Source of the DNA: a virus | Lineage: Duplodnaviria; Heunggongvirae; Uroviricota; Caudoviricetes | IMG/VR virus record: IMGVR_UViG_2562617057_000002 | Direction: 5' to 3' (one strand) | DNA: 27,684 bases | In this document: piece after piece, positions 9,307 to 9,631 of the stretch | Layout: every line of letters starts with the position of its first letter | Position numbering within the stretch: the stretch's first letter is position 1 | Notes under the pieces: generated by a model | The model's input: the letters and a program-made list of their open reading frames with translations, nothing else | What the model was told of the DNA's origin: nothing | Databases searched by the model: none | Translations under genes and position numbers: made by a program

Positions 9307-9456
9307 TCACAATATGCTTCGACCGGAGTTTTCATAATCATCACGCCAGGCTTCAGCATCAGCAGCACTTCCACCACGTAACTCTGCATAGTCCATTAAC
9401 AGTTCATGCCATTCTTCAAAACTGACGTTGTATTTAGTTGAACCAAAATCAGCCAT
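9307..9456 (-). CDS. Hypothetical small acidic protein (49 aa, MADFGSTKYNVSFEEWHELL...), below the ORF-track length cut-off
   Basis: ATG overlaps the stop of the upstream 60-aa gene (ATGGCTGA), suggesting translational coupling; found by manual translation. Confidence 0.3.
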   Translation of the reverse strand: MADFGSTKYNVSFEEWHELLMDYAELRGGSAADAEAWRDDYENSGRSIL

Positions 9457-9631
9457 TTTGTTCTTCCTCTTCGTCTTTTATTGCGTGATATGAGTAATTG
9501 CAGTAGTTAAAGAAAATTTCTTTTGCTTCATCATGAATTTCATCAGGTGTTGCGTCATCGTCCACTTCGAATACATCCTCAAAATCTCCACCAGCTATTC
9601 CCGTTTCAATAATTATTTTGAACTTTCGCAT
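9449..9631 (-). CDS. Hypothetical small, strongly acidic protein (60 aa)
   Basis: MRKFKIIIETGIAGGDFEDVFEVDDDATPDEIHDEAKEIFFNYCNYSYHAIKDEEEEQNG: ~30% Asp/Glu; coupled to the downstream small ORF. Confidence 0.4.
   Translation of the reverse strand: MRKFKIIIETGIAGGDFEDVFEVDDDATPDEIHDEAKEIFFNYCNYSYHAIKDEEEEQNG

What the first reader, a model, noticed from the sequence alone, without database searches (positions are those of the whole stretch)
9307..9631. Pair of translationally coupled, strongly acidic mini-proteins: candidate DNA mimics or anti-defence factors
The 60-aa protein is ~30% Asp/Glu (DFEDVFEVDDDATPDEIHDEAKE...DEEEEQNG) and its stop overlaps the start of a 49-aa acidic ORF (ATGGCTGA). 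Small, highly acidic early phage proteins are a recurring solution for DNA mimicry (Ocr-like, ArdA-like, some anti-CRISPRs, Gam-like).
Basis: inference. Interest (0 to 1): 0.5.

Follow-up and report, generated by a model that had tools for sequence, protein, structure and literature searches.

The report
Two unrelated acidic prophage mini-genes, one broken
The two small acidic genes are real, conserved phage accessory genes of unknown function in a decaying E. coli prophage, but they are not an obligate pair, the second is crippled by an 8-base deletion, and neither resembles any known DNA-mimic or anti-defence protein.

Summary
On the minus strand, 9449-9631 encodes a 60-aa protein (30% Asp/Glu, pI 4.1). 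Its stop overlaps the start of a 49-aa acidic ORF (9307-9456) by 8 nt (ATGGCTGA). The window is a defective, IS-riddled Rac-like lambdoid prophage of E. coli, and the genes lie downstream of the replication genes. The 60-aa protein belongs to Pfam DUF7167 / PHROG 1997. This family of ~55-aa proteins is uniformly acidic and occurs in phages of Gram-negative and Gram-positive hosts, within replication/recombination modules. It is predicted with confidence as a beta-beta-alpha mini-domain with a conserved acidic face. The 49-aa ORF is a rare frameshift allele (8-bp deletion, 11 of 1872 E. coli records) of a conserved 58-aa three-helix protein (PHROG 519) and has lost helix 3. Each family occurs widely without the other, so the overlap is ordinary operon packing. 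Neither shows sequence or fold similarity to Ocr, ArdA, Gam or anti-CRISPRs. An inhibitor role by charge mimicry remains plausible but untested. Interest is modest.

The parts
9449..9631 (-). A60: intact 60-aa gene, a member of Pfam DUF7167 (PF23768) / PHROG 1997. Predicted beta1(2-8)-beta2(17-23)-helix(29-43) mini-domain plus an acidic tail.
   Evidence: ORF. Pfam 51 bits, E 1.5e-13, profile 1-60/60. phrog_1997 E 3.7e-30. AF2 pLDDT 90. pN/pS 0.11.
9307..9456 (-). B49: frameshift-truncated allele of a conserved 58-aa gene (PHROG 519). Residues 1-42 are native and the last 7 (NSGRSIL) are out of frame. Helix 3 of the predicted three-helix bundle is lost.
   Evidence: Protein alignment. DNA alignment showing the 8-bp deletion. 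phrog_519 E 3.7e-15. AF2 model of the intact 58-aa form, pLDDT 87.5, helices 13-27, 34-42, 47-55.
9332..9333 (-). Site of the 8-bp deletion (AAGCAGGA is present here in intact homologues) that frameshifts gene B.
   Evidence: The allele is found in only 11 of 1872 E. coli records that match this stretch.
9288..9332 (-). Out-of-frame remnant of B's conserved C-terminus (KTPVEAYCDEWGDE + stop). In intact alleles this stop overlaps the next gene's ATG (ATGA).
   Evidence: (33-aa ORF 9288-9389 ends ...KTPVEAYCDEWGDE).
9449..9456 (-). 8-nt stop/start overlap ATGGCTGA between A60 and B.
   Evidence: The same -8 overlap occurs in 78 of 80 closely related IMG/VR loci.
9461..9469 (-). Shine-Dalgarno-like GAGGAAGAA for gene B, embedded in the Glu codons of A60's acidic tail.
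   Evidence: Sequence read directly.
9725..10081 (-). Upstream 118-aa zinc-ribbon / basic coiled-coil protein (PHROG 1621) that travels with A and B as one DNA block.
   Evidence: phrog_1621 E 5e-56. It is 99% identical to ArgO145 gp17, which also lies just upstream of A-B there.
9035..9291 (-). Downstream gene C, a pseudogene here. Its N-terminus MSEINYQ resembles the MSEIDYQ start of ArgO145's ead/Ea22-like gene, which is a resemblance only; the only family hits are very weak. The frame then breaks.
   Evidence: RefSeq calls the identical stretch 'frameshifted; internal stop'. ORFs. Comparison with ArgO145 gp13 and vB_EcoS-640R1.

Best explanation
Shown: the finding consists of two independent, real, purifying-selected accessory genes in the rightward (replication / nin-like) operon of a defective Rac-like lambdoid prophage of E. 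coli. A60 is an intact member of DUF7167, a family of free-standing, uniformly acidic proteins of about 55 aa. The family occurs in phages of Enterobacterales, Pseudomonas, Enterococcus, Lactococcus and Streptomyces, almost always among DNA replication or recombination genes. It is confidently predicted as a beta-hairpin plus helix mini-domain. Acidic residues are conserved at about 11 positions clustered between residues 19 and 38 (end of strand 2, the DDAT loop, and the first half of the helix). B is a member of PHROG 519, a 58-aa acidic three-helix bundle found in lambdoid and P2-like prophages and probably in Ackermannviridae phages. In this window it is inactivated by an 8-bp deletion. 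The 8-nt overlap is compact operon packing of a DNA block (zinc-ribbon gene, A, B, Ea22-like gene) that moves as a unit between phage operons. Inferred: DUF7167 most likely acts stoichiometrically as a small protein-binding inhibitor made early in infection or induction. Its conserved acidic face would dock onto a basic, nucleic-acid-binding surface of a host or rival-element protein, such as a nuclease, restriction or other defence complex, or a nucleoid protein. That would be charge mimicry of nucleic acid, a host-takeover or anti-defence role. The intact B family probably works in a similar but separate way. B49 in this window is most likely non-functional.
For: Context: the stretch is 100% identical to an E. 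coli chromosome prophage next to ttcA, lying between replication genes and the Q-like/lysis genes. Family membership. Breadth: 182 representatives at 50% identity, mostly 50-60 aa and standalone; tblastn hits in Klebsiella, Enterococcus and Pseudomonas phages; BFVD structural matches in phAPEC8, Lactococcus 949 and Streptomyces Paedore. Neighbours in 17 non-redundant IMG/VR loci are SNF2 helicase, VapE primase, NinB, ERF, PolA, ligase, methylases and YopX; exonuclease genes directly abut it in two annotated phages. Structure: pLDDT 90. Family-wide acidity: median net charge -11 over 56 aa, and conserved acidic columns at positions 19, 22, 24-26, 29-31, 33, 34, 38. Selection: pN/pS 0.11 and 0.06. 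B truncation and its rarity. Independence of A and B. The block also occurs in the leftward early operon of Stx phage ArgO145, which shows a patchy, mobile, accessory distribution.
Confidence: 0.4

Rival explanations
1. DUF7167, and separately the B family, are accessory subunits or regulators of the phage's own DNA replication or recombination machinery. For example, they could bind a basic phage SSB, annealase, exonuclease or the adjacent zinc-ribbon protein, and would not be inhibitors of host defences.
For: DUF7167 genes sit inside replication/recombination modules in every lineage examined. They overlap exonuclease genes in Klebsiella phage VLCpiS11a and Enterococcus phage MDA2. One natural fusion to a YopX domain exists. 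B directly follows the gpA replication gene in P2-like prophages. The basic zinc-ribbon protein co-travels with A and B.
Against: No single neighbour family recurs: at most 2 of 64 neighbours share a Pfam family. The distribution is patchy, with 29 of 50,697 phage records hit by tblastn. The cassette sits in different operons in different phages. Core replication accessories are usually linked to a fixed partner.
Confidence: 0.25
2. A60 and B are two subunits of one complex, a true translationally coupled pair made in fixed ratio.
For: The 8-nt overlap with an internal Shine-Dalgarno is conserved in 78 of 80 close IMG/VR loci. It is also conserved in both operon contexts. A Pectobacterium prophage has a 57-aa ORF overlapping its B homologue by the same ATGnCTGA arrangement.
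Against: The 80 loci are 95-97% identical to the query used, so they are not independent. A occurs without B in all distant lineages inspected. The Pectobacterium upstream ORF matches the DUF7167 profile only over a 23-residue motif at 11.8 bits. In this window B is truncated while A is intact.
Confidence: 0.1
3. In this particular prophage the locus is inert. The genes are decaying remnants that are not expressed or not functional, whatever the families do elsewhere.
For: B carries a rare 8-bp frameshift (11 of 1872 records). The downstream gene is a pseudogene. Three IS elements interrupt the prophage, and IS110 lies between the replication genes and this cassette. RecE is truncated. No promoter-like site was found in 8900-10200.
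Against: A60 is intact, differs from the commonest allele only at conservative positions, and keeps a Shine-Dalgarno-like site. Read-through transcription across an IS or from IS outward promoters is possible.
Confidence: 0.2

Closest known systems
Pfam DUF7167 (PF23768) / PHROG 1997
   Same: A60 is a full-length member: 51 bits against a cut-off of 24.4, covering profile positions 1-60/60. It has the same ~55-aa size, the conserved IET...EVxDDATxEEI...FN..NY motif, and an acidic tail.
   Different: Nothing distinguishes it from the family. The family itself has no assigned function and no literature.
PHROG 519 (e.g. ArgO145 gp14, CBA120 orf183, many Enterobacterales prophage genes)
   Same: B49 residues 1-42 match the family. 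The intact 58-aa form aligns end to end at E 5.8e-23.
   Different: The window copy lacks the most conserved part, AGKTPxxAxxDEWG (helix 3), because of an 8-bp deletion.
T7 Ocr (gp0.3), the archetypal DNA-mimic anti-restriction protein
   Same: Early phage gene with a very high negative charge density. From memory, Ocr's is about -0.24 per residue; A60's is -0.22.
T7 gp5.9 (small acidic RecBCD inhibitor; recalled from memory)
   Same: Similar size (about 52 aa vs 60 aa), strong acidity, and a position among DNA-metabolism genes. From memory, gene 5.9 sits just before the exonuclease gene 6 in T7. DUF7167 genes directly abut exonuclease genes in Klebsiella phage VLCpiS11a and Enterococcus phage MDA2.
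   Different: No sequence similarity to any PDB chain. A remembered gp5.9 sequence scored nothing against the DUF7167 profile (and the sequence is unverified). Exonuclease adjacency is not general.
ArdA, lambda Gam / Mu Gam, and DNA-mimic anti-CRISPRs (AcrIIA4, AcrIF2 and similar)
   Same: Acidic phage or plasmid proteins that block DNA-binding enzymes, which is the functional class proposed here.

Membership tests
Pfam DUF7167 (PF23768) | Score above the curated gathering threshold with full-length profile coverage | tested here: met
   51 bits vs 24.4, residues 2-53 on profile 1-60/60. phrog_1997 E 3.7e-30.
PHROG 519 (B family) | Significant profile match | tested here: met
   B49 E 3.7e-15. 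Intact 58-aa homologue P0087 E 5.8e-23.
PHROG 519 (B family) | Complete domain including the invariant or near-invariant G44, K45, W55, G56 (C-terminal AGKTP...DEWG, helix 3) | tested here: not met
   An 8-bp deletion replaces residues 43-58 with NSGRSIL.
Ocr-like anti-restriction (Pfam Ocr) | Sequence or profile similarity to Ocr | tested here: not met
   No Ocr family among Pfam hits at E<=1. No PDB sequence hit.
Ocr-like anti-restriction (Pfam Ocr) | Elongated all-helical dimer fold | tested here: not met
ArdA | Sequence, profile or fold similarity to ArdA | tested here: not met
Gam (lambda Gam or Mu Gam) | Sequence, profile or fold similarity | tested here: not met
   A distinct Gam-family gene is annotated elsewhere in the same prophage.
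DNA-mimic proteins (functional class) | High net negative charge, conserved across homologues | tested here: met
   A60 net -13 over 60 aa. Family median is -11 over 56 aa with pI <=5.5 in 97/97. B family median is -10 over 58 aa with pI <=4.66 in 44/44.
DNA-mimic proteins (functional class) | Surface carboxylates arrayed with the spacing of a DNA phosphate backbone | not testable with these tools
   The structure tool returns no coordinates. Only the linear clustering of conserved acidic columns (19-38) is known.
DNA-mimic proteins (functional class) | Binds the DNA-binding site of a target protein and competes with DNA | not testable with these tools
   Needs complex prediction or biochemistry.
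Translationally coupled gene pair | Stop/start overlap with a ribosome-binding site inside the upstream gene | tested here: met
   ATGGCTGA at 9449-9456 and GAGGAAGAA at 9461-9469.
Translationally coupled gene pair | The partnership is conserved across divergent lineages (functional linkage) | tested here: not met
   Each family occurs widely without the other.

The most novel reading that the evidence does not exclude
DUF7167 could be a previously unrecognised, very widespread family of minimal (about 55 aa) nucleic-acid-mimicking inhibitors. Phages of both Gram-negative and Gram-positive hosts would use it to neutralise a conserved DNA-binding host enzyme or defence complex, for example a RecBCD/AddAB-type nuclease or a restriction complex. 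PHROG 519 would be a second, independent family of this kind in Enterobacterales phages.
Probability: 0.2. Interest if true: 0.6.

Novelty: new member of a known kind. Interest (0 to 1): 0.3.

Why it matters
If DUF7167 proved to be an inhibitor, it would add a tiny, cross-phylum family to the short list of phage charge-mimic proteins. One current catalogue lists 11 DNA mimics among 268 anti-defence proteins. That would explain a gene present in about a third of complete E. coli genomes. As it stands, the result is mostly a clarification. The 'pair' is two independent catalogued families of unknown function, and one copy is broken in this window. It is a reasonable low-cost candidate for anti-defence screens and not a surprising discovery.

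Tried and rejected
1. Homology to known DNA mimics or anti-defence proteins. Pfam, NCBIfam and PHROGs scans returned only families of unknown function. PDB sequence searches with profiles of both families gave nothing significant.
4. Literature. No paper mentions DUF7167, PF23768, phrog_1997 or the accessions. A search on lambdoid / nin region / anti-defence found nothing relevant. The EVADES preprint and its held supplements contain neither the family name nor its motifs.
5. The search for related loci with the diverse DUF7167 alignments failed because no conserved 7-10-column stretch exists. A 12-residue degenerate DNA pattern found nothing. A shorter EVEDDAT(D/E) pattern worked.
6. The Pectobacterium ORF upstream of B was tested as a divergent DUF7167 member. 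It gave only an 11.8-bit motif match, so I did not accept it.
7. ArgO145 gp16 was tested as a B paralogue and showed no significant match.
8. No promoter-like site and no minus-strand terminator-like site were found around the cassette.
9. I did not run the PADLOC library, because it holds defence proteins and not anti-defence proteins.

Full report
OBSERVATION. The described features exist, on the minus strand. ORF 9449-9631 encodes a 60-aa protein (A60) with 18 Asp+Glu (30%), 5 Lys+Arg, pI 4.09 and charge about -13. ORF 9307-9456 encodes a 49-aa protein (B49) with 22% Asp+Glu and pI 4.21. A60's stop and B49's start overlap by 8 nt (ATGGCTGA, 9449-9456). A GAGGAAGAA Shine-Dalgarno-like stretch lies inside the Glu codons of A60's tail. 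Against the 108 ORFs of at least 45 aa in the window, A60's acidic fraction is beyond the 99th percentile.

CONTEXT. The 551 bases around the finding are 100% identical to six E. coli chromosomes. They match, at 90% identity or more, about 2300 of 20,395 E. coli records, and also temperate coliphages and Stx2a phages. In strain CFSAN029787 the stretch lies in a Rac-like lambdoid prophage next to ttcA. The gene order is cI/cro-like regulators, an HTH replication protein, DnaB helicase, DUF1627, DUF977 (Ren-like), a zinc-ribbon protein, A, B, a pseudogene, hok/sok, DUF1367/1364/1133 (Q-like), tRNAs and lysis genes. The two genes are therefore in the rightward delayed-early 'nin-like' region. The window's own prophage carries IS66, IS110 and IS4 insertions and a truncated RecE. 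IS110 (11653-12849) sits between the replication genes and this cassette, so the prophage is defective and expression here is uncertain. No promoter-like site was found around the cassette, and the two terminator-like sites found are both on the opposite (+) strand.

ARE THEY A PAIR? Among 80 IMG/VR loci with a close B homologue, 78 have a full-length A immediately upstream with the same -8 overlap. These loci are 95-97% identical to the query used, so they amount to one lineage. The block of zinc-ribbon gene, A, B and an Ea22-like gene has also moved as DNA (90-93% identity) into the leftward early operon of Stx phage ArgO145. In more divergent lineages the linkage disappears. B occurs without A in Proteus prophages (after RecT/AlpA) and in Enterobacter prophages (after Ead/Ea22, in both operon types). 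It occurs without A in Serratia (after a Dam-type methylase), in Salmonella P2-like prophages (overlapping the end of gpA) and in an Ackermannviridae-type phage. Of the 202 phage records that hold it, about 170 are below 60% identity; the listed ones are 150-168 kb genomes of genera I recognise as Ackermannviridae (e.g. CBA120 orf183), but the record table gives no taxonomy and only one such context was inspected. A occurs without B in every distant lineage inspected. Start/stop overlaps are common along this operon. The overlap is therefore ordinary phage gene packing and not evidence of a two-component system.

ARE THEY REAL, SELECTED GENES? Yes. Among unique close alleles, pN/pS is 0.11 for A (33 CDS) and 0.06 for B (19 CDS). 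Both families are conserved at the protein level down to 35-50% identity.

THE ACIDITY. Acidity is a property of each family and not just of this copy. DUF7167 members have a median net charge of -11 over 56 aa and pI at most 5.5 in 97/97. B-family members have a median of -10 over 58 aa and pI at most 4.66 in 44/44. In DUF7167, columns that are acidic in at least 70% of members cluster at positions 19, 22, 24-26, 29-31, 33, 34 and 38. That covers the end of strand 2, the DDAT loop and the first turns of the helix. Hydrophobic positions alternate as expected for a packed core. A conserved, contiguous acidic surface on a very small stable domain is what one expects of a protein that docks onto a basic surface. 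This is an inference, because I had no coordinates and no complex prediction.

MECHANISM AND RIVALS. Shown: gene identity, context, fold class, charge conservation, selection, independence of A and B, and truncation of B. Inferred (my best guess, about 0.4): DUF7167 is a stoichiometric inhibitor made early, which uses its acidic face to occupy a nucleic-acid-binding surface of a host or rival-element protein. The intact B family would do something analogous on its own. The main rival (about 0.25) is an accessory role in the phage's own replication or recombination machinery. That rival fits the constant genomic neighbourhood, but not the absence of any fixed partner or the patchy, mobile distribution. 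An A-B complex is unlikely (about 0.1). For this specific prophage copy, the locus may well be silent or inert (about 0.2, and much higher for B49 alone).

COMPARISON WITH KNOWN FAMILIES. Membership in DUF7167 and PHROG 519 is established, with the caveat that B is truncated. Membership in Ocr, ArdA, Gam or anti-CRISPR families was tested by profile, sequence and fold, and is not met. The resemblance to DNA mimics is limited to charge density and gene position. The closest analogy in size and genomic placement is T7 gp5.9 (from memory: an acidic RecBCD inhibitor of about 52 aa encoded just before the exonuclease gene). There is no detectable homology. No paper in the searchable library mentions the family. 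It is also absent from the text and held supplements of the EVADES anti-defence catalogue.

VERDICT. The finding resolves into two independent, already catalogued families of unknown function in a decaying prophage, and one copy is a frameshift mutant. The anti-defence / DNA-mimic idea is not refuted and is reasonable for DUF7167, but nothing here goes beyond circumstantial support. Interest is 0.3. The most novel reading still open, DUF7167 as a widespread minimal charge-mimic inhibitor family, has a probability of about 0.2.

Noticed in passing
window 9725-10081 (-): A 118-aa protein (PHROG 1621) with an acidic N-terminus, a CHH...CxxC zinc ribbon and a very basic C-terminal coiled coil sits just upstream of A60. 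It is 99% identical to ArgO145 gp17, which accompanies A-B there too. Its function is unknown. It is a conceivable basic partner for the acidic proteins.
   Followed up: partly
window 3958-6537, 11653-12849, 20617-21963: Three insertion sequences (IS66 family with TnpA/TnpB/TnpC, IS110 family, IS4 family) interrupt the prophage. The IS110 copy lies inside the rightward operon between the DnaB helicase gene and DUF1627, upstream of the finding.
   Followed up: partly
window 8156-8368 (-) and 8306-8480 (-): A hok/gef-type toxin ORF (MKQQKAMLIALIVICLTVIVTALVTRKDLYEVRIRTGQTEV...) lies with a full-length Rfam sok antitoxin RNA (113 bits), about 800 bp downstream of the cassette.
   Followed up: no
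window 25338-25516 (-) and 22159-23904 (+): A RalA sRNA (the antitoxin of the RalR type I toxin-antitoxin pair, 204 bits) and a truncated RecE (Exonuc_VIII domain) are present. Both are typical of Rac prophage.
   Followed up: no
window 27078-27222: The overlapping SraC/RyeA and SdsR/RyeB sRNA genes lie at the window's right end, presumably host chromosome at the prophage border near ttcA.
   Followed up: no
window 19143-19232 (+): An Rfam match to sRNA-Xcc1 (RF02221, 67 bits vs gathering score 53) lies inside the prophage's early-left region. This is unexpected for an E. coli prophage and I did not examine it.
   Followed up: no
window 1834-2141 (-): There is a cluster of four phage tRNA genes (Val-TAC, Thr-TGT, Arg-TCT, and a CAT anticodon). 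ARAGORN calls the CAT one Met, but RefSeq annotates the identical gene as tRNA-Ile, presumably lysidine-modified.
   Followed up: no
L143-L145 (Salmonella P2-like prophages), gene at 2501-2689: A B-family gene overlaps the end of the gpA replication gene, before the variable stretch between gpA and the portal gene. In L144 that stretch also holds an nSTAND1/AAA_16 (Avs-like) gene. From memory, this is the known defence hotspot of P2-like phages.
   Followed up: no
P0117 / P0119 (E. coli, 9 contigs each): Chimeric proteins join the N-terminal ~30 residues of the DUF1627 protein to residues 19-58 of B. The junction is at a shared '...EELLMDY/...NELWEL'-like stretch. This implies a deletion that removes DUF1627, DUF977, the zinc-ribbon gene and A60 in some prophages.
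   Followed up: no
L090 2835-3008 (Pectobacterium aroidearum prophage): A 57-aa acidic ORF (VKTITITIEVEVPDTATATDIADF...) overlaps its B homologue by the same ATGnCTGA arrangement. It matches the DUF7167 profile only over the EVxDxATxxDI motif (11.8 bits). It may be a very divergent or convergent relative.
   Followed up: partly
P0156, P0135, P0142 (metagenomic DUF7167 members): There is one natural fusion of DUF7167 to a YopX domain and two tandem DUF7167 duplications. The duplications hint that the single-domain proteins may act as dimers.
   Followed up: partly
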